NCBI GenBank assembly: GCA_017427405.1
Contig: JAFRSV010000014.1
Location: 9,490 to 73,489, forward strand
From: Alphaproteobacteria bacterium
Lineage (GTDB): Bacteria > Pseudomonadota > Alphaproteobacteria > Rs-D84
Length of the DNA stretch: 64,000 nt
Direction: 5' to 3'
Part shown: positions 5,910-19,558 of the stretch, in pieces
Layout: every line of letters starts with the position of its first letter
How positions within the stretch are numbered: position 1 is the first letter of the stretch
Program-made: the position numbers and the translations under genes
The notes under the pieces: model-generated
Databases searched by the model: none
Told to the model about the DNA's origin: nothing
The model's input: the letters and a program-made list of their open reading frames with translations, nothing else

Positions 5910-6245
5910 TCATTCCGATAACGCACGATACAGCGCATCAGGCGTTTGTATAAACGGTGCGCGCATTTTAATTGCATCCTTGGCCATATTGACACAGGTC
6001 CAATTTTTTCGCGGGAAATTTCGTGGTAAATCACATGGCACATAAACAAAGCACCAACCATATTGCCGCAACATTTTCATATCACGTGCGCCCAGGCTAA
6101 TTTTTTCGACACGTCCATGCGATACAAATTGATAGAGTATAAATCCAGCGCGCCCACGCACGATAACCGCACAGTGCCGAAATTTTTTACAAAATATATT
6201 TGGTAAAATTTTTGAAGACTTTTGTGCAAACCCAATAATAACCAT
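5910..6245 (-). CDS. Hypothetical protein, 111 aa (possible small permuted papain/NlpC-P60-like hydrolase; weak)
   Basis: ATG preceded by AAGGA at about 8 nt. Follows the 114-aa gene by 17 nt. His-then-Cys arrangement (FRHCAVIV ... WTCVNMAKDAI). No family recognised with certainty. Confidence 0.5.
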   Translation of the reverse strand: MVIIGFAQKSSKILPNIFCKKFRHCAVIVRGRAGFILYQFVSHGRVEKISLGARDMKMLRQYGWCFVYVPCDLPRNFPRKNWTCVNMAKDAIKMRAPFIQTPDALYRALSE

Positions 6246-6262: not shown

Positions 6263-6607
6263 TTATTCAACCCAACCTTTGGCACGCGCGGCCGCATCAA
6301 TAACGCGCATCGCCGAATCCCATACGGCGGCGGCATGATTTTCGCGCCAAATATATTGATGTGGGGCGCGCCGGCGATCGCCGAATTCTTTGATGACCGC
6401 TAATTGTTCGTCATTTAATTTCCCCGACAAATAAAGTTTTGTAATCATTGTTTCAACATCAACCAATTCGCACACGCGTCGTGTTGCCGCGTTCCCACGA
6501 TATTGCCCAATATCATTACGCACAGATTTCGAATACAGAAACCAAAACCATATTTGTTCTGCACTTTGAAATTTTTCCGGTGTTATATTAACTTGTGAAT
6601 TATTCAT
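6263..6607 (-). CDS. Hypothetical protein, 114 aa
   Basis: Internal ATG (MNNSQVNIT) with a strong AAGGAGAAATTATA-ATG RBS, so the track ORF is trimmed from 6694 to 6607. No recognisable motif. Confidence 0.55.
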   Translation of the reverse strand: MNNSQVNITPEKFQSAEQIWFWFLYSKSVRNDIGQYRGNAATRRVCELVDVETMITKLYLSGKLNDEQLAVIKEFGDRRRAPHQYIWRENHAAAVWDSAMRVIDAAARAKGWVE

Positions 6608-6844
6608 TATAATTTCTCCTTTTTTTCTAATTCCTTTTAATATATAAAGACCCGATTGAGTTCGGTAAATAACTACAACCATAAATTGAAACAAAGTGTG
6701 AATTAGCGATTCGTTCAGTGGTTATAAATTTTTATCTGCGAATCGATAAACTCTTGGTTTTTTGATAAAAGGCGATGCATACGCATCGCCTCTCTCGCTT
6801 ATGGCATAATGAATTTTTTTGCTATGTCATGTTAAAATCCTTTG

Positions 6845-6872
6845 GTTAAAAAAACCGCCATGCGGCGGTTTA
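6845..6872 (-). terminator. Intrinsic terminator immediately after virB10
   Basis: On the minus strand: aaaccgcc-gcat-ggcggttt followed by TTTTTTT, about 20 nt past the virB10 stop. A second hairpin plus T-run (ggcgatgc-gtat-gcatcgcc-tttta) lies at 6760-6790. Confidence 0.65.
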
Positions 6873-6890: not shown

Positions 6891-9317
6891 CTAAAACACA
6901 ATCGGTGGGAAACAATCACCACCCGTATTCGGACAACAATTAAACCCTTGGTCACCCATATCGGTATATGTTTCACCCGGACAGCATCCATTTGCATCCG
7001 GATTAGCACCACCATCACATGTGATAACAGATGTATTTTGTTGCGCCGGCGCGGCGGGCGTTTCTTTCTTGAACGGATTCTTTATAGTGCCATCCGCATT
7101 ATATTCAAGTCCAAGAACCTGGGTATTATATTCAACGGTATTCGCACCTGTGGTATAATCTGTTTTCTGCACACCCATTTGTTGCTGATTTTGGAACACC
7201 GCTTCTTGCCGTGCATTATTGATTGCGGTATATGTCCCAAATGAACGGCAATAGAAATCAATGGTGGCAAAACTATACTGATTACACAATGGCTGACCAG
7301 CTTTCCCAGGGTCCATTTTAGGCGTGCAAGACATATTATCGGCACAATCGCAACAATCTTTCTGAATAGAAGATTGCATCAACGAACGAACCTGGCCAAT
7401 AAGTTCTTCCATATCTGTACTTGGGGTTATTTGATTTGCGGCTGTTCTCCAATTCGCGCGGTTCTCGCCACCTGTACCATCCGCTGCCTTGGTTTGGTAT
7501 GGTCTTATTGCACACGCCTTACCCGGTTGATCGCCACACGTCACGAATAAATCAACCGGCGAAAATACGGTAATACGTGTCCCCGCGGCAATTGAAAAAG
7601 GCGGTGTTGTATTGTTCATAACATCGACCAACAATTTTGTCGCAACATTATTCCACGCGGTGATAATTTCATTTTTGGCAAGTTCCGACGAACGCACAGT
7701 TCCACTTTGAACAACGGTATTATTATCCAAATCAATCTGATTCACAAATGCATCGGACACCGGTGCAATCAAATTCACCGCCGCCGGCACAATAGCGGTC
7801 AGCATTGGCATAATAAATTGTTGCAAATAATCCGTACTGCCGTGTCCGGGGACACCCTTGCGTCCTTGGGAATCCGCCGAAAACGGACGTTGGTTATCTT
7901 TTGTAAAATTAAACTCAACCCCATCGGGACGAATAAATTGATACCATTCTATTTGCATACGACCAACGGCCTTGTATGGTCCCGGTAATTCACCCGTCAC
8001 ATACCCCAGCATCAATGTCCCCGTTGGAATAATCACTGTGCGACCGTTATCGGAATAAACATTCCTATCCACCGTTGCGCGCACCGGAAGACCATTTTTT
8101 AACATCTCTGCATCCGCTTGAACATCCGAAACAATTGTCGCCGGAATTGGTTTATATTGACGCAACACAAATGTCCTATCATACGGCATAGATGAAAATA
8201 CACCGTCACTTGCACCAGACCCAAGATACGTTTCTTCTTTGACCTTGTTCGGTGTCAACTCCAGTTTTTTCATTCCGCCCGTACCACTTGATTGCCGCTG
8301 TGCAACCAAGGCGTTCAGTTCCGCATCCGTCAATTGCCGTGCCCGATTCCCGCGATTCTTTACCGACCGCACGCCCAATGCGGGTAATTGGTCCGTAATG
8401 GTCAAACGAATATGTTCCGCATCCGACCCAATACGCCGCGCCGGATTATTTATATCCATAATATAACCCGTATCCGGATTATAAATTCCGGTCGGCGTTT
8501 TACAATTCACATCGGAAAACGGGTGATAGTAATACGCACCCCCGTCGGGCCTTATCCAACCCGCATGCACGCCAGATATATTGTATCCTGGAAAAGAAAA
8601 TTCCGAACAACCCGTCCCCGTCATAGAACCGGTGGGTGCCATGGCAACCGTTGGATCCGGCCAATCATATGTCGGCATTTGCGTATTATTAAAATCAAAT
8701 TCCGGCGAAATATCGTCCACATCTTTTTCAAAGTCATACGTTGGTTCCGGTTCAAAAATCGGGTCCGGTTCATATATTGGTTCGGGTTCCGGCGCAGGTT
8801 GTATCTTTAACGGTTCACGCGCACCAATAACAATAGTAATTGCGTTTGGTTCGTCACGTTCCACGCCCGTGGCAAAGTCCGTCCATTTAATTGCAACATC
8901 AACATTGGTAATGGTAATCGGATGTTCAGGTTCGTATTTCAACCGTATCTTGCACGGCATATCCGCATCGATAATAGTATTTTCATTTGTGCATGTTTCG
9001 GTTGCCGAAATCCCCGCGGCATCGGTCGTATCACCATCAACCACAACATTTACATCCGTCACCTGAACACGGGTATTTGCCGACACAGTATATTCAATTT
9101 CGCGCGATTCCCCAACATCCGTATCGACCCAGTCAATCGGTTCGTTTGGCGACACAATCAGTTCCGGCGTGACCGCCACCGGTGAATCAACGATTTCAAC
9201 CTTTTTTGTATCCTTGCCCCGCGTCAGCATCACGAACAACGCAACCACAACAATGATTGCCACAATAAGCAAGAACCATTGCAATCCACGTGACGAAGAA
9301 TCATTTTCCATACTCAT
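6891..9317 (-). CDS. virB10: VirB10/TrbI-family type IV secretion core protein, expanded (808 aa)
   Basis: N-terminal TM (WFLLIVAIIVVVALFVML) and a Pro-rich stretch (PAPEPEPIYEPDPIFEPEPTY). TrbI domain at about aa 380-594 (VRATVDRNVYSDNGRTVIIPTGTLMLGYV...RMQIEWYQFIRPDGVEF...AGTRITVFSPVDLFV). ATG at 9317 has AAGGGGAA upstream; the track start at 9323 is TTG. Confidence 0.85.
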   Translation of the reverse strand: MSMENDSSSRGLQWFLLIVAIIVVVALFVMLTRGKDTKKVEIVDSPVAVTPELIVSPNEPIDWVDTDVGESREIEYTVSANTRVQVTDVNVVVDGDTTDAAGISATETCTNENTIIDADMPCKIRLKYEPEHPITITNVDVAIKWTDFATGVERDEPNAITIVIGAREPLKIQPAPEPEPIYEPDPIFEPEPTYDFEKDVDDISPEFDFNNTQMPTYDWPDPTVAMAPTGSMTGTGCSEFSFPGYNISGVHAGWIRPDGGAYYYHPFSDVNCKTPTGIYNPDTGYIMDINNPARRIGSDAEHIRLTITDQLPALGVRSVKNRGNRARQLTDAELNALVAQRQSSGTGGMKKLELTPNKVKEETYLGSGASDGVFSSMPYDRTFVLRQYKPIPATIVSDVQADAEMLKNGLPVRATVDRNVYSDNGRTVIIPTGTLMLGYVTGELPGPYKAVGRMQIEWYQFIRPDGVEFNFTKDNQRPFSADSQGRKGVPGHGSTDYLQQFIMPMLTAIVPAAVNLIAPVSDAFVNQIDLDNNTVVQSGTVRSSELAKNEIITAWNNVATKLLVDVMNNTTPPFSIAAGTRITVFSPVDLFVTCGDQPGKACAIRPYQTKAADGTGGENRANWRTAANQITPSTDMEELIGQVRSLMQSSIQKDCCDCADNMSCTPKMDPGKAGQPLCNQYSFATIDFYCRSFGTYTAINNARQEAVFQNQQQMGVQKTDYTTGANTVEYNTQVLGLEYNADGTIKNPFKKETPAAPAQQNTSVITCDGGANPDANGCCPGETYTDMGDQGFNCCPNTGGDCFPPIVF

Positions 9318-9339
9318 TACCAATTCCCCTTAAAATACA

Positions 9340-10890
9340 TTACTGTATGCGAACCACCTGGCAACTGGCGCCACTGAACTTTAACAACTGGTCACACAAT
9401 TGTTGCGCGGTATCAATATCCGGCATTGGCCCAATACGCAACCGATACAAACGCGCCGCCGAAGATTTCGCCCCAAGTTCGCCAACGCCTTCTTCATCCA
9501 CGGCATAGAACACGCTGTCTTTATATTTATTCAATAAACCTTTGCCGTCATTACCACTGAACCGTGCAACCAATCCGGCCCAGTATTCATCCAACGCCTT
9601 GACACTGCTGTCGGAACGCAATTCAACGGCGACACCACCTTGGTTGCTGGTAATAAGTGGTATATTCGAATTCGGCAAATAAGACCCCGCGGTCACGCGT
9701 TCGGTTGGCATCATACTTATGCCACGTGTGCCATTGCCCAGGGCGGGCGCATCATATGTGCCATACATCATCGCCCCCGTATTCATCGGCATCGCCGGCA
9801 TGGTCGGCAACACCGCGGCATTTGGCACATTGCCAATATACGTCGGACTTGCGGTAAGGTTTTCGTACCCCGCGTTTATCGCGGTCATATTGTCGTTATA
9901 AATCATATTGTTCAGTGAATTTCCCGACATCATACTTTGTGCAACATTTGCCTCGGCCAACGCCATCACACTTGCGGTATCGGCAACCAAGAACGGTTTT
10001 GCGCGCTTTTTAATACAAACAATGCGTTGCCCACTGCGCAGAACCATATCGCCCACGGCCTCTACAATAAGCAAACGACCGTCTTGACCATCGGTGCGGA
10101 ACCCGACCGGCGATTCGCCGCCTTCGACCAACAACGACACCACGGGGCGTTGCGTCATTGAAATAACCTTGTCGCCAAAGTCAATATACGTAAACACACG
10201 GTCACGCCACACGCGTTCCGGCGCAATTACATAGTCGTCCGGATTCGGCACAAAAATATCCAAATCGAAACGGAATTCCGACGGGTCAATTTTCATCGTT
10301 TTAATCCAATCGTAATCTTCGCCATCGACACCGATGCTGGTGCTTTTTGTATTTGTGTTTTTAAATATGGAATTCATCGCCCCACCACTTGGTGCGGTTG
10401 CCGCGCCCGCCATGGGCAAACGGGCGCCCCCATCCAAAACAACATCAACCTGGGAATAGGTAATTTCGGACGCGTTCGACGGTTCACTGCGCAGATAGAA
10501 AGTATAAACATTTCCCGACTTTCCCGTCACAATCAAATTTGTATCCGACCCCATATTGTCCGGCGCGGGTGTAATGTAAAGCGTCCGCCCGCCTTGATTT
10601 CCATTAATTTGAAAGAACCCTTCGTTTCCGACAACCGCGTCTTCAATCTGTTCGCCCTTTGGCAAGTTCACCATCGTCACCATACCATTACGCAACTTTA
10701 CCGGCAACACGGTCCCCGGTTCCCACGCAAGTTGCGCGTATCCGGGTTTCAAACTGCCACTTGTCATATTTGCGTTTGGGTTATCCCACGCGGCCTGAAC
10801 ACCCCAGTTTCCGTCCAACGGCGCCGCCCACGCACCCGACACGACAACACCTGCGCAAATTGCAAATCTAAAAATCCAAAGTGCTTTCAT
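9340..10890 (-). CDS. virB9: VirB9/TrbG/CagX-family type IV secretion core protein with C-terminal SPOR-like domain
   Basis: Signal peptide (...SGAWA/AP). VirB9 N-domain (VKLRNGMVTMVNLPKGEQIEDAVVGNEGFFQI...TNLIVTGKSGNVYTFYL) and C-domain (APERVWRDRVFTYIDFGDK...VGFRTDGQDGRLLIVEAVGDMVLRSGQRIVCIKK). M/N/P-rich linker, then RLYRLRIGPMPDIDTAQQLCDQLLKFSGASCQVV. RBS AGGAAGGGA. Confidence 0.85.
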   Translation of the reverse strand: MKALWIFRFAICAGVVVSGAWAAPLDGNWGVQAAWDNPNANMTSGSLKPGYAQLAWEPGTVLPVKLRNGMVTMVNLPKGEQIEDAVVGNEGFFQINGNQGGRTLYITPAPDNMGSDTNLIVTGKSGNVYTFYLRSEPSNASEITYSQVDVVLDGGARLPMAGAATAPSGGAMNSIFKNTNTKSTSIGVDGEDYDWIKTMKIDPSEFRFDLDIFVPNPDDYVIAPERVWRDRVFTYIDFGDKVISMTQRPVVSLLVEGGESPVGFRTDGQDGRLLIVEAVGDMVLRSGQRIVCIKKRAKPFLVADTASVMALAEANVAQSMMSGNSLNNMIYNDNMTAINAGYENLTASPTYIGNVPNAAVLPTMPAMPMNTGAMMYGTYDAPALGNGTRGISMMPTERVTAGSYLPNSNIPLITSNQGGVAVELRSDSSVKALDEYWAGLVARFSGNDGKGLLNKYKDSVFYAVDEEGVGELGAKSSAARLYRLRIGPMPDIDTAQQLCDQLLKFSGASCQVVRIQ

Positions 10891-10915
10891 TTTTCCCTTC
10901 CTTTTCTTTGCGTAT

Positions 10916-11623
10916 TTATTTTGATATCCAATTCAACGGATCGTTCCCGTTCAACACCGTGTATTCCCTGACTTTCAATCCCAACGGATTATTAAGGCGT
11001 TCGATCCAATCAATAATCCTGTCGTTATCCTTGGCCAAAACAACACGAATCTTATAGTCCTTTTTATTTGTCGGCCCGCTGTTTGATTCACAATAATATC
11101 GTATCGTCACGGTATATGTGTCTTCCTTTAATACCAATGGCGCACCAATAAATGTGACGGGGCATGTAAACGCAAAATCCGGATAGTCACCAATAATTGC
11201 GTTATACATATCGGTCTGGGTGAATGCCTTGTAAACCGCGGGCGTGGACCACATTGCAACAACGCCACCATCATTACCCCACTTGCGCCGCATAATTGAA
11301 GTATTGCGTTCCACTTCGTTCCGGGCGCGGACATATTCCATGACGAACGCCTTTTTATATTCGTCCACGTTTTCATCACTTGCCGGCAATTCAGTAATTT
11401 GAATACTTGATGAATTTGCGGGCTTGGTCGTGATAAAGAAAATTTCGGGTCGATTTAATGGAAACATTTTCCCCAGTGTCATAAACAATACAAACACCAC
11501 CACCGCCATTCCGGCGAATACAAATACAACCAATCTGGACAACAAAACAGGCGGTTCTATGCGGTGTTGCAAGGTTCCTCTCCTAAACGTTTTTTTTGAT
11601 TGTAGAAAAAATCTTGCAACCAA
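10916..11623 (-). CDS. virB8: VirB8-family type IV secretion protein
   Basis: A single N-terminal TM, then a periplasmic domain with the VirB8-like layout (VDEYKKAFVMEYVRARNEV ... NPLGLKVREYTV). The start is uncertain: TTG at 11623, or TTG at 11572 preceded by AGGAGAGG. Confidence 0.8.
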   Translation of the reverse strand: MVARFFLQSKKTFRRGTLQHRIEPPVLLSRLVVFVFAGMAVVVFVLFMTLGKMFPLNRPEIFFITTKPANSSSIQITELPASDENVDEYKKAFVMEYVRARNEVERNTSIMRRKWGNDGGVVAMWSTPAVYKAFTQTDMYNAIIGDYPDFAFTCPVTFIGAPLVLKEDTYTVTIRYYCESNSGPTNKKDYKIRVVLAKDNDRIIDWIERLNNPLGLKVREYTVLNGNDPLNWISK

Positions 11624-11676
11624 TGCAAGTAAAAAAATAGTGGTCAGTGCAAGTGGAAAGTGTTGGTGTAGTCAGT

Positions 11677-11923: not shown

Positions 11924-14900
11924 ATGAAGTTTTTAACGTCGAGAGTAGTTGTTTTTGCGTTGATGTCGTTTTTGGTGTCGTTTGTGGCGCATGCCGAAGA
12001 CAAGGTTGTTGGTGATGGTGGCAAGACGGGCGATACGGGGGAAGTCGTGAAATCGGGTTCGACGCCGGCAATAGATTACAAGGTTGTCACATCCAAGGCA
12101 TATGTTGATGATGAAATCTCTAAGCTTGCCGCACACAAGGTTAATGGTGTTGCGATATCAAATGAAAACATCCAATTTTATGCAGTAGAAACTGCCAGAA
12201 ACAGTGGGGCTTCTGCAACAAAAACAGTTCAACTTAGTGGCGGGGACATGGATTCTGATGCTACAACCATACCGACGGGAATGATGCTTGTTATTAAGCC
12301 GGCTGAGACATCAACTGTTGTGCCAACAACGTTAAAGCTGAAAAGGACTAGTTCCGATACTACGGGAATATCTAAATCGTTACGTTACAACGGTGCGGCA
12401 ATTACAACCGATATGGCGGGCAAAGTGTGGAATGCGAACACCCCATCTATTTGGGTGTATGATGGAACGTATTGGGATTTTGCCGGTGGTGGCACGGTTG
12501 CGGACGGCCTGATTGATGGCCTTGCGTCACATACCGTAAATGGCGCGCCACTATCGAATTTGGCGAGTGTGTTTTTTGGACCCGGGGAGGGTTCTGATGG
12601 CGCCGACAAAAAGGTAACGATCGATTCTATTGCTTCAACGGAGGGGGGGGTGCCACCGACGGGATTAATAATTGTGACTCAACCAACCGACTCGGATAGT
12701 CATGGTAATTTTGCTCTTACTTTAAACCGTTTTAACAAAGCACCTGTGTTTTATAACGGCGCGCCTGTCAACGACAGAGATGCATCCGCAATATGGAGTA
12801 TTAAAAAGCCGTCTTCGTTTGTGTTTGATGGCACAAATTGGGTGTTTTTAGGAACTGTTGATACTGATACCAACACCGAGTATAGCACCATGTCTGTTGA
12901 CGAAGGAACCGCTGGGCAATCGCAAACGCAACGAGTATTGACGGCACAAAACCTTAAACCGATAATCCAGGGCACAACATTGACAGGTCTTAGTACAAGT
13001 ACTGCTAGTGTAATAACTACATCCGACACGGTAACAACTGGTATGGGTAAGTTACAGGCTCAAATTACGGCTAATGATGTTAGGACACATACGGTAAACG
13101 GTGCACCGTTATCAAATACAGCAAGTTATTTTTATGGCACAGGTGTCGGTGTTCCCGATAATGCTGCCAAAACAGTAGAGATAGACTCTATTTATTCCGT
13201 AATCGGTCAAACAACACCGAATGGACAAATGATTGTTGTTCAACCAGAGAAAACGGCAACGAAAGGTAATATCACATTACAGTTAAACAAGTTCAATGCT
13301 GCGCCAGTGTATTATAACGGAGACGTCTTGAATGATGACGATGTGTCAAAAGTCTGGAATAAGGGGTATCCATCGACATTTGTGTTTGATGGAACGAATT
13401 GGGTTTTTATGGGTAACGGACAATTCGATACTGATACCAATACCGAGTATAGCACCATGTCTGTTAACGAAGGAACCGCTGGGCAATCGCAAACGCAACG
13501 AACATTGACGGCACAAAACCTTAAACCGATAATCCAGGGCACAACATTGACTGGTGTTGACACAACGGCGACAACGGCGGTAACGGCATCGGATACGGTC
13601 ACAACCGGCATCGGAAAACTTCAAGGACAGATAAATGATTTATCGTCACATAAAATAAACGGTATGCCGCTTTCGGGCTTTACATCGAATGGCGATGCGA
13701 TGACCAGTATGTATTTTTATGGGACATCGGATGCGGCGGCGGCCGACGAAGTAAGGAATGTGACCATTGGCGGCATAACCGAACTTGCACCGGGGTTGAT
13801 GATTATTGTGAAACCAACGATAACCGCCGCGTACGGAAATGCGGATGCGGCGGCGGCGGCCAAATTGAACCTGAACGGTCTTGGTGCCAAGGGTATGCGG
13901 TATAATGGTGCCGCACTTACCACCACCAATGATGGATATGCGTGGAAGGCGAATACCCCGGGTTTATGGTTGTATGATGGGACATATTGGAATTTTGCCG
14001 GTTATGACGCAAATAACACATATAACGCTATGACCGATGGTGCCAGTGGTTCGTATAGTGGCCCGGCTGGGACAGCCACCACAAACACGGTGGTCAGTCC
14101 AAAGGTTTTAAAGAACACCGTTCTTGACGGTATAACCCTTACCGCGAATACCGGTCGGACGGCATTTGATAGCACAATCGCGAACACCCCAATTACCGCA
14201 AGTGATAAGGTAATAGAGGCATTTGGTCATGCCCAAGGACAAATTAATAACAAACAGAACAAGATTGATGCAACATGGATAGAAGTTTCGACATTAGATA
14301 ATAGTGACATATGGCAACTGCGTGGGATTGCCGCATCAAATAACGCCGCGACTGATATTAACGCCACCGAAATTGGTCTTATGACAAATAATGATGTATA
14401 TGCGATATTGTCATATAATAACGAGGGGCACGGTTTGGTTGATGCAAATTATGATTTTTTCCAGAGTATCGGTCAAACCGGTCGCTATGAAGAATTGGAA
14501 AATCTTGTTCCAACTGTTGCCGCGGTTGGTGAAGCGTTTGGTGAACTTCGTGCTTTTTCGTGGGATTCCACAAAACACCCCGTGGCGATTGACGCATACA
14601 GCACGACGTTCAGTAACAGTGCAACGAACGCATGGCCGGTGATGAACGAAACCAAGGCCCCAAGTGGCAGTGTCCTTGCCAACGCATTGGCATTAAAGCA
14701 AAATAAAATTGCCGCCGGCACTGCGGGTAATGTTGTGACATATAGCGGTACCGCGGGGCAATTTGGTACACCGCTTAGTATAATGGATGGTCTTAGTTCC
14801 TATGGCGAAGTTGCGGTACTTGATAATGCATATAATTTTGGGGATCCAGAAACATCACAAACCACTGTTTGGCCATTGGCAGAGGCAACCCAATTAATAA

Positions 14901-17900
14901 ATGGTCGCGCCTTTGCTGACGGTTTATCTTTGAAGCAAACTGTGTTACCGGTTACCAGCAATGGAATGGGCAACGGACCAAACTATGTTTACAATGCAAC
15001 GACAAACCCGACAGCGGACGGATCCGTTGTCACCACAACAACGACCGCCGGCACCGTGGGTCAGCGCGGTATTGCGACGGCACCAACGTATGATGCAAAT
15101 GATAATTTAACCAATGGTTCGTGGTTACCGACGATGAGTGCGGTTGAAAGCATGGTATCTGGGTCCGATGTTTCATCGCACAAGGTCAATGGCGCACCAT
15201 TATCAAATACGGCATCGTACTTTTATGGCGAAGGTGTTGGTGCGGCGGACACGGCAACCAAGACGGTTAGCATACCGTCAATAACCGGCACGCCCGCGGT
15301 TGGCCAGGTTATTGTTGTCAAACCGGCAACAACGAATACATCGTCAACAATAAATATAAATTTAAACAATACGGCGGCATACAGTGTTTTGTATAGGGGC
15401 AGTTCTAGCAATATCCCAAAGGATGTTTGGACGGCATATGTTCCATCGATATTTGTTCTTGATGAAACCAGTGGTGGAACAAAATATTGGCGGTATGTCG
15501 GAACTTCGCCGTCGTCGATGGCATGGGGGGCGACCGAAACCAATGCAACAAACGCATATAGTACGACATTTGACGGCACAACAAACAATTGGCCGGTGGC
15601 GGATGAAAATAAATACGTCAAGGGTGATTCATTTGCCCAAGGTTTGGCATTAAAACAAAATAGAATCACAACTAATTTGGTGTCGTTTAATGATACGCCA
15701 AATGGTGCAACATATAATGTTCCGGCACTTGTATCATATGGAACGGGTACAAATAATGCTGATGGGATACTTGGCAACAAAATCGGTATAGTGGGTTATG
15801 GAAATATTGGCGAAGATCTTGCAGATTATGAAGAAGTTGGAATGGATAATTATGTTCCGACCGTTTACGCCGTGGCAGCGGCTTTATCCGCCATTTGGGA
15901 GGGTATGCCATCACAATGGCAGGCGCTTTCTTGGAATGTGAACGGTGACAATGGTGCCAATCGCACAAATGCAATCAATGCATATAATACAACATTTGGA
16001 ACCGGCACAAACAATTGGGCGGGAACCAACACAAATTTGATAAATGGGCAATTTTTGGCAAATTCCCTTGCGCTGAAACAAAATAAAATCCCGGCGGGAA
16101 CAACCCCCGAAAATTTATACACGAACGGCAGTGTATTAACATATACCAATTCTGATGGGGTCGTTGGTGAAAAACATATTATAAATGGTCAAATGTTTGA
16201 GGATCTTGTTGGAGGTCGTGAAAACTGGACGAATGATTATCAAAATATGCTTGTAAATGCCGGTGATATCGGAACAATGTTGAAAAGGCTTGATTGGTCC
16301 AGTACCCAAAGCGCCGCAATCAATGCATATAACACAACATTTGGAACCGGTACAAATAATTGGACGGGAAATGACGGTAATTTAATAAACGGTCAATTTT
16401 TGGCAAATTCCCTTGCCCTGAAACAAAATAAAATTCCTGCCGGCACTGCGGGGGAAATCTTGACGTATAGTGGCACCGCGGGACAGCTTGGAACGCCATG
16501 GGCGGTTTTGTCTAGTTTGACTGGTGAGGATGGAGATGCAATAGAAAACTATAGCACAACGTTTAATGGCACAGATGGCAATTGGACAACAGGTTCCGCG
16601 GGTAAATTGATTACTACGAATGTCTTGGCGGATGGGTTAGCATTGAAACAAACAAGAATCTCAACCGGATTGGTGGAGTTTGAAGGAAATGAAGGTAATT
16701 ATCAATTGCCCGCAATCGTTAGAACGGATGCCTTGGGGGACTTATTAGATGGAACAAGTCTTGGTATATTTAATTTTGCAACATATCAGGCAGAAGATGC
16801 GTATCAAGCTTTAGCCGGGTATGCCGAAGGTGCTACCGCAGCCCAACTTGATAATTTCGTACCTACACTTCGTGTGGTGGCAGAAGAACTTAAAGCGATT
16901 GAAAGTAAACAAAACAAACTCCCAGCTGCATATGCAAGTACAACAGATCCCAGTAAAATGGCATCAATGGGTGGGGAAACGATTGCTTTGGGATCGTACG
17001 CGGGGAGCGTGAGTCAGCGTTATATCACCGCGGGTGGGTCACAACCACTTACCCAAAAAACTGGGGCAGATAATGTGATGTTATATATCAATGGAACAAA
17101 AACATTAGCCCAATTCCAAACATCGAACTTTGGTGCGACCGGCGGGACAGCAACCACCATTCAGGGGAGAATCAAAGAATCGTTGGTTAATTTGGAAACA
17201 TTGAAAGATGTGTATAGTGAATTACAAGAAAGTATTGAAAGTTCCGATGTTTCATCGCACAAGGTCAATGGCGCACCATTATCAAATACGGCATCATACT
17301 TTTACGGCGAAGGTGTTGGGGAGGCGGACACGTCAACCAAAACGGTCAGCATCCCATCAATAACCGGCACCCCCGCCGTTGGCCAGGTTATTATTGTCAA
17401 ACCGGCGACAACGAATACCGCATCAACGATAAAGATAAATTTAAACAATACGGCGGCATACAGTGTTTTATACAGGGGCAGCACAACCAATATCCCATCA
17501 GAGGCATGGACGGCATATGTTCCGTCGATATTTGTCCTTGATGAAACCAGTGGTGGAACAAAATATTGGCGGTATGTCGGAACTTCGCCGTCGTCGATGG
17601 CATGGGGGGCGACCGAAACCAATGCAACAAACGCATATAGTACGACATTTGACGGCACAACAAACAATTGGCCAACGGCGGATGAAAATAAATACGTCAA
17701 GGCTGATTCACTTGCGTATGGTTTGGCGTTAAAACAAAACGCTTTGCCGGCCCAGGCATCGGGTGCCCCGGTCACAATTCCGACATACCCGGCATATGGT
17801 ACATCTGATGGGGTGATTGGTAAAATGTATCTTGATACATCATCGCTTTATACGGCAAATGATGAACATTTCCCATCATCAAAATTGATTCGTACAACAC

Positions 17901-19279
17901 TTTCATCGTATGTGCCAAAGTCGTATGTACTTAATACCAATGATACAAATTCTTATTTGGCCGATGATAACAGCGCGCCATCATGGGCAACAACAAACGG
18001 CGTGGCAAGTTTATATCGTGTTCCGGGCGCGGCAAGTGGTTCAAATTGGGCCGCCACGGCCATGTCAAAGTGGGCCAATGATGAAAATGTTCCAACAATG
18101 GATACTTTGGCAAATTCACTTGCGGGACTTTATGATGCGGTTGGTGTTTCGGTTGAAGATCGAATTCTGAACTACGATGAAACCGGTTATAGTATTGTGG
18201 GTGAAAGTGTTCCCGTTCCGTCCCAGATTGAATATACCGGTGAATTAAAACTTAAAGATGGTAATCAATTGTTCTGGCTGCCACAATTGCAAAATGCGGG
18301 TGTGGAAGAAGCAACGAGATTACTGAAATCTTATTCGATGGACAAAATCGTCCCCAGTATGGATGAATTGGCATTTGCGTTGGATGGTGTTTTACAAACA
18401 CATGAAACCACCAGAGAATGGCAAGAAGTCGTGAATTTTTACAGGGTTCCATCAAGCTCTCTCTTTGAAGTTGCAAAGGAAATAGAGGCCTCTGAAGTTA
18501 ATGCAGTAGCGCTTTACAAAAGTGGTTATTTGCAAACCTTTGCCCCAAGTTTAGAGGCATTGATGAACGAATCCGCCGAGCTTGTACGACTTATAAACAG
18601 CAAACAAAACAAATTATCCGGTACCAGTGGCAACCTTATCACGTATGGCGCAACCGCGGGCACAACCGGGTCCAAGGAAATTGCAACCACCATAACAAAC
18701 AATGCCAACACGGTGCCAAATACACAGGCAGTTTACAATGCCGTAAATGCACGACAAAATGTAATACCGGTCGCTGGTAAATATCGTTCGTCAAACACGG
18801 CAACAAGTGACACACCCATATCTGATTGGACCGTCACAGATATCAAGGGGACCGCACTGGTGACCAAACCAACATCTTCGGATGGTGTTGTTGGCGAACG
18901 CAAGATTTTCGAGGCGGGTGACACATACACAGACGATACTAAAACAAATATACAAATTGCAACAATTGGTGCGGTTATGGAAAACACGTTTACAAAAACA
19001 TGTGTTGAATACGCCCCTGGGTCAACACAAAATGACACCACATGTTGGCTGTGGCAACTTACAAGCAACACCGTCACGTCAACGAGATGTAGCGCGAGTG
19101 GTGTAAGTTGCCGTTCAAGTACCGAATGTTGCAGTGGAATCTGTAGATCAGAGGTTTGTGCCGCCACACTTATCGCTTGCGGGGGCGAAGGATCATCATG
19201 TTCACTGATTGCTTGCTGCGATGGGTTGACCTGTGACAGCAGTAGCAATACATGTGTTAGAGAGGCTGGCCGTACATGA
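11924..19279 (+). CDS. Giant secreted repeat protein (2451 aa), tail-fibre-like modules, Cys-rich C-terminal cap
   Basis: Uninterrupted 7.36-kb ORF with RBS GGAAGGGA and signal peptide MKFLTSRVVVFALMSFLVSFVAHA/ED. Recurrent SHK/TVNGAPLSN, VPT-x3-V-x3-L and LALKQNK motifs. All Cys that I could see fall in the last ~95 aa. Confidence 0.85.
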   Translation: MKFLTSRVVVFALMSFLVSFVAHAEDKVVGDGGKTGDTGEVVKSGSTPAIDYKVVTSKAYVDDEISKLAAHKVNGVAISNENIQFYAVETARNSGASATKTVQLSGGDMDSDATTIPTGMMLVIKPAETSTVVPTTLKLKRTSSDTTGISKSLRYNGAAITTDMAGKVWNANTPSIWVYDGTYWDFAGGGTVADGLIDGLASHTVNGAPLSNLASVFFGPGEGSDGADKKVTIDSIASTEGGVPPTGLIIVTQPTDSDSHGNFALTLNRFNKAPVFYNGAPVNDRDASAIWSIKKPSSFVFDGTNWVFLGTVDTDTNTEYSTMSVDEGTAGQSQTQRVLTAQNLKPIIQGTTLTGLSTSTASVITTSDTVTTGMGKLQAQITANDVRTHTVNGAPLSNTASYFYGTGVGVPDNAAKTVEIDSIYSVIGQTTPNGQMIVVQPEKTATKGNITLQLNKFNAAPVYYNGDVLNDDDVSKVWNKGYPSTFVFDGTNWVFMGNGQFDTDTNTEYSTMSVNEGTAGQSQTQRTLTAQNLKPIIQGTTLTGVDTTATTAVTASDTVTTGIGKLQGQINDLSSHKINGMPLSGFTSNGDAMTSMYFYGTSDAAAADEVRNVTIGGITELAPGLMIIVKPTITAAYGNADAAAAAKLNLNGLGAKGMRYNGAALTTTNDGYAWKANTPGLWLYDGTYWNFAGYDANNTYNAMTDGASGSYSGPAGTATTNTVVSPKVLKNTVLDGITLTANTGRTAFDSTIANTPITASDKVIEAFGHAQGQINNKQNKIDATWIEVSTLDNSDIWQLRGIAASNNAATDINATEIGLMTNNDVYAILSYNNEGHGLVDANYDFFQSIGQTGRYEELENLVPTVAAVGEAFGELRAFSWDSTKHPVAIDAYSTTFSNSATNAWPVMNETKAPSGSVLANALALKQNKIAAGTAGNVVTYSGTAGQFGTPLSIMDGLSSYGEVAVLDNAYNFGDPETSQTTVWPLAEATQLINGRAFADGLSLKQTVLPVTSNGMGNGPNYVYNATTNPTADGSVVTTTTTAGTVGQRGIATAPTYDANDNLTNGSWLPTMSAVESMVSGSDVSSHKVNGAPLSNTASYFYGEGVGAADTATKTVSIPSITGTPAVGQVIVVKPATTNTSSTININLNNTAAYSVLYRGSSSNIPKDVWTAYVPSIFVLDETSGGTKYWRYVGTSPSSMAWGATETNATNAYSTTFDGTTNNWPVADENKYVKGDSFAQGLALKQNRITTNLVSFNDTPNGATYNVPALVSYGTGTNNADGILGNKIGIVGYGNIGEDLADYEEVGMDNYVPTVYAVAAALSAIWEGMPSQWQALSWNVNGDNGANRTNAINAYNTTFGTGTNNWAGTNTNLINGQFLANSLALKQNKIPAGTTPENLYTNGSVLTYTNSDGVVGEKHIINGQMFEDLVGGRENWTNDYQNMLVNAGDIGTMLKRLDWSSTQSAAINAYNTTFGTGTNNWTGNDGNLINGQFLANSLALKQNKIPAGTAGEILTYSGTAGQLGTPWAVLSSLTGEDGDAIENYSTTFNGTDGNWTTGSAGKLITTNVLADGLALKQTRISTGLVEFEGNEGNYQLPAIVRTDALGDLLDGTSLGIFNFATYQAEDAYQALAGYAEGATAAQLDNFVPTLRVVAEELKAIESKQNKLPAAYASTTDPSKMASMGGETIALGSYAGSVSQRYITAGGSQPLTQKTGADNVMLYINGTKTLAQFQTSNFGATGGTATTIQGRIKESLVNLETLKDVYSELQESIESSDVSSHKVNGAPLSNTASYFYGEGVGEADTSTKTVSIPSITGTPAVGQVIIVKPATTNTASTIKINLNNTAAYSVLYRGSTTNIPSEAWTAYVPSIFVLDETSGGTKYWRYVGTSPSSMAWGATETNATNAYSTTFDGTTNNWPTADENKYVKADSLAYGLALKQNALPAQASGAPVTIPTYPAYGTSDGVIGKMYLDTSSLYTANDEHFPSSKLIRTTLSSYVPKSYVLNTNDTNSYLADDNSAPSWATTNGVASLYRVPGAASGSNWAATAMSKWANDENVPTMDTLANSLAGLYDAVGVSVEDRILNYDETGYSIVGESVPVPSQIEYTGELKLKDGNQLFWLPQLQNAGVEEATRLLKSYSMDKIVPSMDELAFALDGVLQTHETTREWQEVVNFYRVPSSSLFEVAKEIEASEVNAVALYKSGYLQTFAPSLEALMNESAELVRLINSKQNKLSGTSGNLITYGATAGTTGSKEIATTITNNANTVPNTQAVYNAVNARQNVIPVAGKYRSSNTATSDTPISDWTVTDIKGTALVTKPTSSDGVVGERKIFEAGDTYTDDTKTNIQIATIGAVMENTFTKTCVEYAPGSTQNDTTCWLWQLTSNTVTSTRCSASGVSCRSSTECCSGICRSEVCAATLIACGGEGSSCSLIACCDGLTCDSSSNTCVREAGRT

Positions 19280-19484: not shown

Positions 19485-19558
19485 AGGGGCATGGTTCAAT
19501 GGTAGAACATCGGTCTCCAAAACCGCGGATGAGGGTTCGATTCCTTCTGCCCCTGCCA
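19485..19558 (+). tRNA. tRNA-Trp (anticodon CCA)
   Basis: Hand-folded cloverleaf. Acceptor AGGGGCA/TGCCCCT, anticodon loop cTCCAaa, T-loop GGTTCGATTCC, CCA end encoded. Canonical position upstream of secE. Confidence 0.9.

What the first reader, a model, noticed from the sequence alone, without database searches (positions are those of the whole stretch)
6891..11623. Isolated virB8-virB9-virB10 operon with no ATPase, pilin or coupling-protein genes nearby
Three tightly spaced minus-strand genes (gaps of about 25 and 22 nt) encode clear VirB8, VirB9 and VirB10 family proteins. The unit has its own promoter-like TTGTCA-N17-TATATA and two tandem hairpin/T-run terminators directly after virB10. 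It is therefore a self-contained three-gene transcription unit. Nothing in the whole 64 kb resembles VirB4, VirB11, VirD4, VirB2/3/5/6, a relaxase, an integrase or a transposase. The flanks are yidC-side housekeeping genes and a giant fibre-like gene. Known precedents for split systems are the Rickettsiales rvh cluster (virB8-9-10-11-D4) and the Helicobacter ComB DNA-uptake operon (comB6-10, without B11/D4). This cluster matches neither exactly. All three proteins also have non-canonical features (see separate findings). Three explanations are possible: a split T4SS, a ComB-like uptake machine, or a T4SS outer-membrane core complex repurposed as an envelope-spanning scaffold.
Basis: partly seen in the sequence, partly recalled or inferred. 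Interest (0 to 1): 0.78.

Follow-up and report, generated by a model that had tools for sequence, protein, structure and literature searches.

The report
Lone T4SS core operon in Enterousia
Three genes for the envelope-spanning core of a type IV secretion system (VirB8, VirB9, VirB10) form their own operon among housekeeping genes in a tiny-genome gut bacterium (Candidatus Enterousia) and stay intact at the same spot in all 80 related species examined; it is most likely one island of a split secretion machine whose motor genes lie elsewhere, but that could not be checked here.

Summary
Window 6891-11572 (minus strand) encodes divergent VirB8, VirB9 and VirB10 homologues. No other T4SS gene lies in the 64 kb, in about 17 kb of added flank, or within 10 kb of the triad in 80 related species.

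The window is chromosomal DNA of Candidatus Enterousia (Alphaproteobacteria, GTDB order Rs-D84, genomes under 1 Mb). The triad always lies between yidC and tRNA-Trp/secE/nusG. All three genes are intact and under purifying selection (dN/dS 0.04-0.26). A terminator-like hairpin follows virB10 in 73 of 75 loci.

VirB9 carries a C-terminal SPOR (peptidoglycan-binding) domain. No VirB7 gene is adjacent.

More distant uncultured relatives share this long VirB9 and have fuller rvh-like clusters (B6 array-B8-B7-B8-B9-giant B10-B11). In one such MAG, VirB4 lies in a separate islet, so a split layout is proven there. A Microvirga plasmid carries a complete conjugative version.

Most likely this is the core-complex island of a split, vertically inherited T4SS. 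I could not test whether Enterousia keeps VirB4, VirB11 or VirD4. A motor-less, repurposed core remains possible (about 0.2-0.25).

The parts
11599..11628 (-). Conserved sigma-70-like promoter of the operon: TTGCAT (11628-11623), 18-nt spacer, TACAAT (11604-11599), followed by an A-rich leader and a GGAG Shine-Dalgarno sequence
   Evidence: This block is invariant in 9 close relatives. TTGCNN-N18-TACAAT lies directly upstream of virB8 in 76 of 78 loci. There are only 92 matches in 2.87 Mb scanned on both strands, so the chance expectation is 0.007 per 230 nt. The consensus scan did not list it because the -35 hexamer matches only 3 of 6 positions.
10916..11572 (-). virB8-like gene (218 aa from TTG 11572). 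It has a short cytoplasmic tail, one transmembrane helix and a periplasmic VirB8 domain ending in the NPLG motif
   Evidence: Pfam VirB8 E 1.6e-10. The start codon was fixed from the conserved SD+TTG. The alignment with relatives shows the invariant NPLG motif, and an N-terminal tail much shorter than in the sister family. dN/dS is 0.06-0.15.
9340..10890 (-). virB9-like gene (516 aa): signal peptide, VirB9 N-terminal and C-terminal domains, variable linker, C-terminal SPOR domain
   Evidence: Pfam CagX E 9e-22 plus SPOR. Foldseek matches TrwF/VirB9 8rt6_B (E 1e-10) and X. citri VirB9 6gyb_B. It is intact in 80 of 80 loci. dN/dS is 0.04-0.11.
10426..10788 (-). VirB9 N-terminal beta-sandwich domain (aa 35-155), the I-layer domain of core complexes
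   Evidence: AF2 pLDDT is above 90. Foldseek to the R388 I-layer VirB9 NTD 7o3t_B gives TM 0.78 and rmsd 2.6.
9931..10308 (-). VirB9 C-terminal (O-layer) domain region (aa 195-320), hyper-conserved
   Evidence: It is 94-100% identical to the window over 20-aa windows across the window and 80 species. The core motif IAPERVWRD...PVGFRT...IVC is kept even in relatives that are 33-44% identical overall. AF2 confidence is low here (about 40).
9343..9636 (-). SPOR-like peptidoglycan-binding domain at the VirB9 C-terminus (aa 419-516)
   Evidence: Pfam SPOR 22.3 bits against a cutoff of 21. AF2 pLDDT is about 90 in most of the domain, with a beta-alpha-beta-beta-alpha-beta fold. Foldseek to the RlpA SPOR domain 6i09_A gives TM 0.74. 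PF05036 is precomputed for many homologues.
6891..9323 (-). virB10-like gene (810 aa; 808 aa from ATG 9317). It has an N-terminal transmembrane helix, a beta-sandwich domain, a Pro-rich linker, a small disulfide-type domain, a TrbI barrel with two long helices, and a 210-aa C-terminal extension with a conserved Cys-rich end
   Evidence: Pfam TrbI E 8e-16 (aa 387-587). PDB phmmer hits are CagY 9e-6, ComB10 6e-5 and TrwE 0.12. Conservation is 0.7-0.9 in aa 381-600 and 0.8 in the last 30 aa. The AF2 model is poor apart from the transmembrane helix and the aa 50-167 sandwich.
7524..8183 (-). TrbI/VirB10 C-terminal barrel domain (aa 381-600), including the putative antenna helices (about aa 495-567)
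   Evidence: Helices are predicted at 495-525 and 544-567, but at low confidence.
6852..6871 (-). Intrinsic terminator-like hairpin 1 (AAACCGCCGCATGGCGGTTT plus T-run), 20 nt after the virB10 stop
   Evidence: A hairpin plus T-run occupies this position in 73 of 75 loci, with different stem sequences.
6767..6790 (-). Terminator-like hairpin 2 (GGCGATGCGTATGCATCGCC plus TTTT)
   Evidence: Fifty of 75 loci have two hairpins between virB10 and the next gene.
6263..6613 (-). orf143 (real length about 116 aa, MNNSQ...). A conserved small cytoplasmic protein always downstream of virB10 in Enterousia. Whether it belongs to the system is uncertain
   Evidence: Present in 75 loci. It has 35 invariant residues across 13 diverse species. 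No Pfam, NCBIfam, PHROG or PDB match. It is not found next to the triad outside Enterousia.
5910..6245 (-). orf111. A conserved small protein (invariant C19, H24, C84) always following orf143 in Enterousia. Whether it belongs to the system is uncertain
   Evidence: Present in 72 loci. No family or PDB match. It is not found next to the triad outside Enterousia.

Best explanation
The operon encodes the VirB8-VirB9-VirB10 sub-assembly of a chromosomal, vertically inherited P-type (VirB-like, rvh-like) type IV secretion system. This sub-assembly is the outer-membrane core complex plus the periplasmic/inner-membrane VirB8 ring.

Shown:
- The three proteins are VirB8, VirB9 and VirB10 homologues.
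- They form one conserved transcription unit at a fixed chromosomal site in Candidatus Enterousia (order Rs-D84).
- They evolve under purifying selection like housekeeping genes.
- Their closest fuller relatives are rvh-like clusters of other uncultured small-genome Alphaproteobacteria, and a conjugative T4SS on a Microvirga plasmid.

Inferred from solved core complexes (R388, X. citri, pKM101):
- VirB10 is anchored in the inner membrane by its N-terminal helix, crosses the periplasm through the Pro-rich linker, and forms the outer-membrane ring and pore with its C-terminal barrel and two long helices.
- VirB9 is exported. Its N-terminal domain builds the inner layer and its hyper-conserved C-terminal domain the outer layer, together with VirB10.
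- The lineage-specific C-terminal SPOR domain of VirB9 pins the ring to peptidoglycan.
- VirB8 nucleates and links the ring to the inner-membrane part.

Also inferred, not shown: the inner-membrane motor and channel (at least VirB3/VirB4 and VirB6-like proteins, perhaps VirB11 and VirD4) is encoded in other islets of the roughly 0.85-Mb genome, as in Rickettsiales and as shown here for a sister lineage. The machine would serve contact-dependent exchange with a partner cell by this metabolically dependent bacterium. The substrate (protein, DNA or both) is unknown.
For: Family assignments come from Pfam and NCBIfam, from the Foldseek match of the VirB9 model to TrwF/VirB9 and X. citri VirB9, and of its C-terminus to the RlpA SPOR domain, and from the VirB10 barrel matches to CagY, ComB10 and TrwE.

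Taxon and lifestyle: 80 GTDB species loci are titled Candidatus Enterousia or Alphaproteobacteria MAGs. Their genomes are under 1 Mb and lack most biosynthesis (PMC12306168).

Fixed synteny recR-ksgA-NaH-lspA-yidC | orf111-orf143-B10-B9-B8 | nusG-rpl-rpoB holds in all 80 loci. ORFs are intact in 76-80 of 80. dN/dS is 0.04-0.11 for B9, 0.06-0.15 for B8 and 0.13-0.26 for B10, against 0.02-0.16 for neighbouring housekeeping genes. The promoter is conserved in 76 of 78 loci and the terminator in 73 of 75.

Ancestry: the sister family has B6-like array-B8-B7-B8-B9(SPOR)-B10-B11, and in one case VirB4 as well. The Microvirga pMVF16-3 cluster has a relaxase, VirB2-B4, B7-B11 and D4, with a 550-aa VirB9. 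The phmmer ranking of the window VirB9 is intermediate clade 376-420 bits, sister family 261, Microvirga 168, C. jejuni plasmid 12.7, Ti none.

Split layout proven in a relative: VirB4 P0498 (MBR5130626, locus tag IKV03_05325) lies next to ndk and the dcw cluster. B8, B9 and B11 of L082 are MBR5130070/71/73 (the B8 entry carries tag IKV03_02465), which places them in the same MAG.

Isolated [B7]-B8-B9-B10 groups among housekeeping genes occur in three further contexts, and a B9-B10 pair without adjacent B8 in a fourth. Archipelagos of vir islets are characteristic of Rickettsiales (PMC2653234).
Against: No VirB4, VirB11, VirD4, VirB2/3/6 or VirB7 homologue was found in the 64-kb window, in about 17 kb of added flank, or within 10 kb of the triad in 80 species. 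The rest of any Enterousia genome could not be read, so the partner genes are assumed.

Compared with the sister family, the Enterousia unit has lost the adjacent B7, the second B8, the B6 array and B11. Its VirB8 cytoplasmic tail is reduced to about 10 residues. In the R388 structure that tail contacts the VirB4 part (from my own knowledge of that structure, not tested here).

The only genome paper on the lineage does not mention a T4SS, which is weak evidence.

The JGI scan with a VirB4 alignment found no VirB4 attributable to Enterousia, but it used only two narrow peptide patterns.
Confidence: 0.6

Rival explanations
1. Motor-less remnant put to a new use. Enterousia lost all T4SS ATPases and channel subunits. 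It kept only a SPOR-anchored VirB8-9-10 ring as an ATP-independent envelope-spanning structure, for example an outer membrane-peptidoglycan-inner membrane tether, a large passive outer-membrane conduit, or a docking platform for surface fibres.
For: No other T4SS gene was seen in about 81 kb of this species or within 10 kb of the triad in 80 species. Adjacent B7, B8-II, the B6 array and B11 have been stepwise lost relative to the sister family (against 16 and 72). The VirB8 cytoplasmic tail is truncated. VirB9 has a peptidoglycan-binding SPOR domain and an extremely conserved C-terminal domain. The operon is embedded among envelope-biogenesis genes (lspA, yidC). It shows housekeeping-like selection in a genome with little room for useless genes (PMC12306168).
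Against: No functional T4SS-derived machine without VirB4 is known (from my own knowledge). The SPOR-bearing VirB9 also occurs in relatives that do have VirB4 and VirB11, so SPOR is not a sign of repurposing. A relative whose VirB4 is also absent from the 10 kb shown upstream of its cluster does encode it elsewhere, so local absence says little. Only about 10% of the genome was seen.
Confidence: 0.23
2. ComB-like DNA-uptake machine. The triad is the outer part of a competence T4SS (as in Helicobacter comB6-10 plus comB2-4) that imports DNA, here perhaps as a nucleotide source.
For: JGI names some homologues 'ComB9 competence protein'. The NCBIfam ComB10 model hits VirB10 at 2.8e-14 and PDB ComB10 at 5.6e-5. 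No B11 or D4 is adjacent, as in ComB. The lineage cannot make nucleotides (PMC12306168). dprA lies next to the triad in one intermediate-clade locus.
Against: The ComB10 score (53 bits) is far below its cutoff (300) and no better than the generic VirB10 model (61 bits). CagY scores better than ComB10. The window VirB9 scores 12.7 bits against an epsilonproteobacterial plasmid VirB9, but 168-420 bits against alphaproteobacterial systems that carry VirB11, and in one case a relaxase and VirD4. The JGI names are automatic. ComB also needs ComB4 (a VirB4), which is equally unseen here.
Confidence: 0.1
3. Decaying leftover of a lost T4SS or a fragment of a mobile element, without function.
For: Only three of about twelve T4SS genes are present locally. 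Similarity to the curated family models is low.
Against: ORFs are intact in 76-80 of 80 species. dN/dS is 0.04-0.26. The VirB9 C-terminal domain is 94-100% identical across the species set. The promoter and terminators are conserved. The chromosomal position is fixed, and no integrase, transposase or relaxase is present.
Confidence: 0.02

Closest known systems
Rickettsiales vir homolog (rvh) T4SS: islets virB8-virB9-virB10-virB11-virD4 and virB3-virB4-virB6 (PMC2653234)
   Same: Both are chromosomal, vertically inherited P-type T4SSs in reduced-genome Alphaproteobacteria. Both are scattered in islets with B8-B9-B10 co-operonic. The sister family found here has the rvh hallmarks: B8-B7-B8 duplication, arrays of B6-like genes, B11 after B10, and VirB4 in a separate islet.
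   Different: The Enterousia islet stops after B10, with no B11 or D4. It has a single B8 and no adjacent B7. VirB9 is twice the usual length, with a SPOR domain, and VirB10 has a 210-aa Cys-rich extension. The organism is placed in Rs-D84, not Rickettsiales. No Rickettsia sequence was compared directly.
Unnamed T4SS of uncultured gut Alphaproteobacteria (loci L081, L082, L088, L089; e.g. MAG with locus tag IKV03)
   Same: It shares the long VirB9 with the same core motifs and SPOR-like end (33-36% identity, 261 bits), the VirB8 paralogue next to B9, and a conserved small domain in VirB10.
   Different: It has a B6-like array, B7, a second B8 and B11 adjacent, and a giant VirB10 of 2265-2717 aa. 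VirB4 is demonstrated for it.
Conjugative T4SS of Microvirga sp. VF16 plasmid pMVF16-3 (NZ_CP069357.1)
   Same: It is the closest system in a cultured organism. Its VirB9 is 550 aa (168 bits to the window VirB9) and its VirB10 is 590 aa. Its VirB4 is 44% identical to the sister-family VirB4.
   Different: It is plasmid-borne and contiguous. It has a MobA/MobL relaxase, VirB2, B3, B4, B7, B11 and VirD4. It serves conjugation, judged from the annotation only.
Helicobacter pylori ComB DNA-uptake system (comB2-4 and comB6-10)
   Same: It is a split T4SS in which B8-B9-B10 homologues share an operon and no B11 or D4 is used. ComB10 is detectable by sequence.
   Different: The ComB operon includes B6 and B7. 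There is no specific sequence affinity, and no SPOR domain is known to me in ComB9 (memory, not tested).
Solved outer-membrane core complexes (R388 TrwH/F/E 8rt6 and 7o3t; X. citri 6gyb; Cag 6x6j)
   Same: The VirB9 N-terminal domain superposes on TrwF (TM 0.78). The whole-chain best hits are VirB9 chains of these complexes, and the VirB10 barrel aligns to CagY, TrwE and VirB10.
   Different: Those complexes contain a VirB7 lipoprotein, and none has a SPOR domain on VirB9. The stoichiometry and assembly of the Enterousia proteins are unknown.

Membership tests
P-type (VirB/MPF_T-like) type IV secretion system | VirB8 homologue (bitopic inner-membrane protein, NTF2-like periplasmic domain) | tested here: met
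   Pfam PF04335 at 41.6 bits against a cutoff of 23.2. The NPLG motif is conserved.
P-type (VirB/MPF_T-like) type IV secretion system | VirB9 homologue with N- and C-terminal core-complex domains | tested here: met
   Pfam PF03524 at 78.3 bits against a cutoff of 34.2. Foldseek to TrwF and X. citri VirB9 gives E 1e-10. The C-terminal-domain fold itself was modelled at low confidence.
P-type (VirB/MPF_T-like) type IV secretion system | VirB10 homologue (N-terminal transmembrane helix, Pro-rich region, C-terminal barrel) | tested here: met
   Pfam PF03743 at 58.9 bits against a cutoff of 35. The transmembrane helix and Pro-rich stretch are visible in the sequence. PDB hits are CagY, ComB10 and TrwE.
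P-type (VirB/MPF_T-like) type IV secretion system | VirB4 ATPase, the universal T4SS signature | tested here: inconclusive
   It is absent from the window, about 17 kb of flanks, and within 10 kb in 80 species. The rest of the genome is not readable with the tools left. A relative with the same local absence encodes it elsewhere.
P-type (VirB/MPF_T-like) type IV secretion system | VirB7 lipoprotein partner of VirB9 | tested here: not met
   No lipobox ORF lies within 900 nt upstream of virB8 in 80 loci. No hit to B7 references in the window. It could be encoded elsewhere.
P-type (VirB/MPF_T-like) type IV secretion system | VirB2/VirB3/VirB5/VirB6 channel and pilus subunits, VirB11, VirD4 | tested here: inconclusive
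   None occurs in the regions examined. The whole genome was not examined.
Rickettsiales vir homolog (rvh) | Islet virB8(-B7-B8)-virB9-virB10-virB11-virD4 | tested here: not met
   The operon ends at conserved terminators after virB10. The next genes are orf143 and orf111, not B11 or D4.
Rickettsiales vir homolog (rvh) | Components scattered in several chromosomal islets, with duplicated B4/B6/B8/B9 | not testable with these tools
   This needs a whole Enterousia genome. It is met for the sister family.
Rickettsiales vir homolog (rvh) | Host lineage is Rickettsiales | tested here: not met
   The records are Candidatus Enterousia. NCBI places it in Alphaproteobacteria incertae sedis and GTDB in order Rs-D84. 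A few MAG titles say 'Rickettsiales bacterium'.
ComB competence T4SS | comB6-B7-B8-B9-B10 operon composition | tested here: not met
   No B6 or B7 homologue is adjacent.
ComB competence T4SS | Specific sequence membership (NCBIfam T4SS_ComB10 equivalog) | tested here: not met
   53 bits against a cutoff of 300, which is lower than the generic VirB10 model (61 bits).
SPOR-domain proteins (peptidoglycan binding) | SPOR fold (beta-alpha-beta-beta-alpha-beta) recognisable by sequence and structure | tested here: met
   Pfam PF05036 at 22.3 bits against a cutoff of 21, matching only half of the model. AF2 pLDDT is about 90 in most of the domain. Foldseek to the RlpA SPOR domain gives TM 0.74. Binding to denuded glycan was not tested.

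The most novel reading that the evidence does not exclude
Enterousia, and perhaps the wider clade with isolated B8-B9-B10 triads, has discarded every T4SS ATPase. It retains a SPOR-anchored VirB8-VirB9-VirB10 ring as an essential, ATP-independent, envelope-spanning structure. It would then be, to my knowledge, the first T4SS core complex shown to work without a VirB4 motor, for example as an envelope tether or a passive conduit in an epibiotic or parasitic bacterium.
Probability: 0.22. Interest if true: 0.8.

Novelty: new variant of a known kind. Interest (0 to 1): 0.45.

Why it matters
Candidatus Enterousia (Rs-D84) is a widespread, uncultured gut and rumen lineage with genomes under 1 Mb. 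It cannot make most building blocks and is thought to live off other cells, yet nothing is known about how it contacts them. A T4SS core kept as carefully as ribosomal neighbours, in every species examined, is a prime candidate for that interface.

For T4SS biology the family offers three things: a VirB9 fused to a peptidoglycan-binding SPOR domain, core operons without an adjacent VirB7, and sister systems with VirB10 proteins of 2,300-2,700 residues. None of these was found described in the literature searched.

If the genomes truly lack VirB4, the finding would show that a T4SS core complex can be retained for a motor-independent role. If they have it, this is one more split, rvh-like system, useful mainly as a marker and an entry point for studying the lineage's lifestyle.

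Tried and rejected
1. Looking for VirB4 in Enterousia.
- The JGI metagenome scan with a VirB4 alignment used only two narrow patterns and returned 16 loci.
- The VirB4 islets at 63-68% identity (L096-L100, L107) looked like candidates. L099/L107 were traced by NCBI locus tag IKV03 to the sister-family MAG that carries L082, not to Enterousia. L096-L098 and L100 were left unassigned.

2. Tetranucleotide and GC matching cannot separate Enterousia from the sister family. For example, L107 correlates 0.961 with L082 and 0.955 with Enterousia L073.

3. A contig-length coincidence (438,511 against 438,547 bp) suggested that VirB4 and an Enterousia VirB9 shared a contig. No shared record supports this, and the 438,511-bp VirB4 belongs to the sister-family MAG IKV03.

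4. Extending the window contig by one look-up at each end found only housekeeping genes.

5. orf143 and orf111 as system components: there is no family or PDB match even with profiles, and no homologue next to triads outside Enterousia. They are left as conserved neighbours of unknown role.

The shallow-alignment model is too poor to use (mean pLDDT 36).

7. HMMER against PDB sequences finds no VirB9 relative, even with a 125-sequence profile. Only the fold comparison does.

8. Literature: nothing was found on T4SS in Enterousia or Rs-D84, or on VirB9-SPOR fusions. The 2023 Enterousia paper is not held.

9. The giant fibre gene as a partner is rejected as a core part, because it is absent from most species.

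Full report
WHAT IS THERE

The window carries three tightly spaced minus-strand ORFs. ORF 10916-11623 matches Pfam VirB8 (E 1.6e-10). ORF 9340-10890 matches CagX/VirB9 (E 9e-22) and, at its C-terminus, SPOR (E 1.7e-4). ORF 6891-9323 matches TrbI/VirB10 (E 8e-16, aa 387-587). NCBIfam gives the same names, but with scores far below the equivalog cutoffs (VirB9 55 against 218, VirB10 61 against 220, ComB10 53 against 300). These are therefore divergent members.

Pfam scans of all ORFs of at least 150 aa in the 64 kb show ordinary chromosomal genes. They include recR, ksgA, a Na/H exchanger, lspA, yidC, nusG, rplA, rplJ, rpoB, rpoC, plsX, fabH, parC, map and holA, together with several large Cys-rich secreted proteins that match no family.

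I also ran phmmer against every six-frame ORF of at least 30 aa in the window. The queries were VirB2, B3, B4, B6-like, B7, B11, VirD4 and relaxase from the closest fuller systems found later. Only the three genes were hit.

WHOSE DNA IT IS

VirB9 has more than 1,400 homologues in the protein collection. The best 120 are 68-100% identical and about 510 aa long. A scan of one genome per GTDB species returned 108 relatives. The 80 kept are MAGs titled Candidatus Enterousia, Alphaproteobacteria or proteobacterium, from rumen, gut and faeces. One is a 716,531-bp complete chromosome.

Enterousia belongs to GTDB order Rs-D84. Its genomes are below 1 Mb, lack most biosynthetic pathways, and are thought to depend on other cells (PMC12306168).

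COMPARATIVE ANATOMY

All 80 loci show the same order: recR-ksgA-NaH-lspA-yidC | orf111-orf143-virB10-virB9-virB8 | (variable slot) | nusG-rplK-rplA-rplJ-rpoB. The genes are intact in 79 (B8), 80 (B9) and 76 (B10) of the 80 loci. The remainder are cut by contig ends.

VirB9 is the best conserved of the three. Residues 195-320 are 94-100% identical across the window and 80 species. In the most distant species RpoB is only 81-85% identical. Against close relatives, dN/dS is 0.04-0.11 for B9, 0.06-0.15 for B8 and 0.13-0.26 for B10. Flanking housekeeping genes give 0.02-0.16. The unit is therefore functional and vertically inherited. It is neither a mobile element nor a decaying remnant.

TRANSCRIPTION UNIT

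Two hairpin plus T-run terminators follow virB10, at 6852-6871 and 6771-6790. At least one such hairpin sits between virB10 and orf143 in 73 of 75 loci, and two in 50 of them. The stem sequences differ between species.

An invariant block follows it: TTGCAT-N18-TACAAT (11628-11599), an A-rich leader, GGAG and a TTG start at 11572. The pattern TTGCNN-N18-TACAAT occurs upstream of virB8 in 76 of 78 loci. Chance expectation is 0.007 per region, and 76 of the 92 matches in 2.87 Mb are these sites.

So virB8 is 218 aa, and the three genes form a self-contained operon.

The giant 2451-aa gene is transcribed divergently from a variable slot next to tRNA-Trp. It is absent from most species and is not part of the unit. 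orf143 (about 116 aa) and orf111 always follow the operon in Enterousia. They match no family or solved structure and are missing next to the triad outside Enterousia.

PROTEINS

An AlphaFold model of VirB9 was built from a 125-sequence alignment. It is confident for the N-terminal beta-sandwich (aa 35-155, pLDDT above 90) and for most of aa 419-516, but not for the hyper-conserved aa 195-320.

Foldseek puts VirB9 chains of solved core complexes on top: R388 TrwF 8rt6_B (E 1e-10), X. citri 6gyb_B, and the I-layer chain 7o3t_B (TM 0.78). The C-terminal domain matches the RlpA SPOR domain (TM 0.74).

VirB10 has an N-terminal transmembrane helix, a beta-sandwich (aa 50-167), a Pro-rich stretch and a conserved small two-Cys domain (aa 237-300). 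These are followed by the TrbI barrel (aa 381-600, 70-90% conserved) with two long predicted helices, and a 210-aa extension ending in a conserved Cys-rich motif. Its barrel aligns to CagY (9e-6), ComB10 (6e-5) and TrwE (0.12) in the PDB. The VirB10 model itself is too poor to interpret.

No VirB7-like lipoprotein ORF lies upstream of virB8 in any of the 80 loci.

RELATIVES OUTSIDE ENTEROUSIA

A search of 1.84 billion representative proteins found full-length relatives at 36-44% identity that share the VirB9 core motifs and the SPOR-like end. Their contexts fall into three groups.

(a) A sister family (33-36% identity to the window VirB9). It has a B6-like array, then B8-B7-B8-B9, a giant VirB10 of 2265-2717 aa, and VirB11. 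VirB4 is adjacent in one case (L081). This gene order is that of the Rickettsiales rvh system (PMC2653234).

(b) An intermediate clade (about 41% identity). Three loci hold [B7]-B8-B9-B10, with B10 of 623-758 aa, alone among housekeeping genes. A fourth (L085) holds B9-B10 (B10 663 aa) without an adjacent B8. All four chromosomal contexts differ.

(c) A complete conjugative system on Microvirga sp. VF16 plasmid pMVF16-3. It has a relaxase, VirB2-B4, B7, B8, a 550-aa VirB9, B10, B11 and VirD4.

phmmer scores of the window VirB9 rank as follows: intermediate clade 376-420 bits, sister family 261, Microvirga 168, a C. jejuni plasmid VirB9 12.7, and Ti VirB9 none. The Enterousia VirB8 corresponds to the paralogue next to VirB9.

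IS THE REST OF THE MACHINE ELSEWHERE?

This is the key question, and I could only answer it for a relative. A JGI scan with a VirB4 alignment found VirB3-VirB4 islets in housekeeping contexts.

One of these VirB4 proteins (P0498, MBR5130626, locus tag IKV03_05325) lies next to ndk and the dcw cluster. It belongs to the same NCBI MAG as the L082 cluster, whose B8, B9 and B11 are MBR5130070, MBR5130071 and MBR5130073 (the B8 entry carries tag IKV03_02465). So a lineage with the same kind of VirB9 has a proven split T4SS, and VirB4 was equally invisible in the 10 kb shown upstream of its B6-B11 cluster.

For Enterousia itself no VirB4 was found. The regions searched were the window, about 17 kb of added flank, and 10 kb either side of the triad in 80 species. 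That is only about a tenth of a genome. The tools that could read whole genomes were exhausted.

Some points speak for real reduction. The adjacent B7, second B8, B6 array and B11 are gone. The VirB8 cytoplasmic tail is cut to about 10 residues.

INTERPRETATION

The operon encodes the core-complex and VirB8 module of an rvh-like, vertically inherited T4SS. The mechanism of the module is inferred by homology to solved complexes. VirB10 would span from the inner membrane to an outer-membrane pore. VirB9 would form both ring layers. Its SPOR domain would tie the ring to peptidoglycan. VirB8 would bridge to the inner-membrane part.

I put 0.6 on the module working with VirB4 and partners encoded in other islets. 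I put about 0.2-0.25 on a motor-less, repurposed core, and about 0.1 on a ComB-like uptake role. The ComB-like role has no specific sequence support. A non-functional remnant is essentially excluded.

NOVELTY

NCBI already annotates the genes as a TrbG/VirB9 family protein, and split T4SSs are well known. Three things are new relative to the literature I could search: the order-wide conserved three-gene operon at a housekeeping locus, the VirB9-SPOR fusion family, and the lack of an adjacent VirB7. I rate this a new variant of a known kind, of moderate interest. Interest would be high only if whole-genome searches show that VirB4 is absent.

Noticed in passing
L081:11611-19764, L082:11825-18889, L088:11545-18393, L089:11818-18615: In the sister family the gene after virB9 encodes a giant VirB10 of 2265-2717 aa. 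The TrbI domain sits near its C-terminus, and Pfam shows faint Bflower/DUF3659 hits upstream. Only CagY (1927 aa) comes to mind as a comparably enlarged VirB10.
   Followed up: partly
window 11924-19279 (+): A 2451-aa ORF with a signal peptide, internal repeats (300-nt copies 89% identical, 2079 nt apart) and a Cys-rich C-terminus. It matches no Pfam family. It is divergently transcribed from virB8 and sits in a variable slot next to tRNA-Trp (19485-19558). Most Enterousia species lack it, and the close relatives that have it share only 33-62% identity.
   Followed up: partly
window 9931-10308 (VirB9 aa 195-320): This VirB9 segment is 94-100% identical across the window and 80 species, which is more conserved than RpoB. 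AlphaFold nevertheless models it at pLDDT of about 40. It may fold only in the assembled ring, as reported for the X. citri VirB9 C-terminal domain with VirB7 (memory). This is unexplained.
   Followed up: partly
window 5910-6245 and 6263-6613 (-): Two small conserved genes of unknown function always follow the operon in Enterousia. orf143 has an invariant EKFQ..EQ.WFWF motif. orf111 has invariant Cys19, His24 and Cys84, suggestive of a small thiol enzyme. Neither matches any family or PDB entry.
   Followed up: partly
window 57559-58596 (+): A 345-aa protein with two N-terminal transmembrane helices. Its C-terminal domain (aa 228-337) matches phage endolysin and tape-measure PHROGs (E 3e-15 and 1e-14). 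It is possibly a membrane-bound cell-wall hydrolase. Unannotated ORFs flank it (56710-57552, acidic and Pro-rich; 58609-59205).
   Followed up: no
window 35963-40300, 40492-42324, 62190-63479 (+): Several large secreted proteins (1445, 610 and 429 aa) are rich in cysteines and match no Pfam family. Together with the Cys-rich ends of VirB10 and the giant ORF, they point to a disulfide-rich surface or periplasmic proteome.
   Followed up: no
L096:1760-8545 and 9107-11542: In one uncultured relative, the orphan VirB4 gene lies next to type IVb-pilus-like genes (PilO accessory protein, secretin, TcpQ) and to holC, thyX and dnaE. The lineage was not identified.
   Followed up: partly
L085:6835-9535: In the locus of the nearest outgroup VirB9 (P0124) no virB8 is adjacent. 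The two upstream ORFs (463 and 435 aa) begin with prepilin-like N-termini (GGTLIETIVALSLF...).
   Followed up: no
L072 (OZ246409.1) and L030 (CAZJGX010000027.1): Two public records titled 'uncultured Muribaculaceae bacterium' carry the Enterousia synteny and VirB9 (68-70% identity). One of them is a 716,531-bp 'chromosome 1'. The taxonomic labels look wrong.
   Followed up: no
L087:8629-9741: In one intermediate-clade genome, dprA (DNA-processing protein of natural transformation) lies just downstream of the triad, after one 116-aa gene, on the opposite strand. This may be coincidence, but it bears on the DNA-uptake idea.
   Followed up: no
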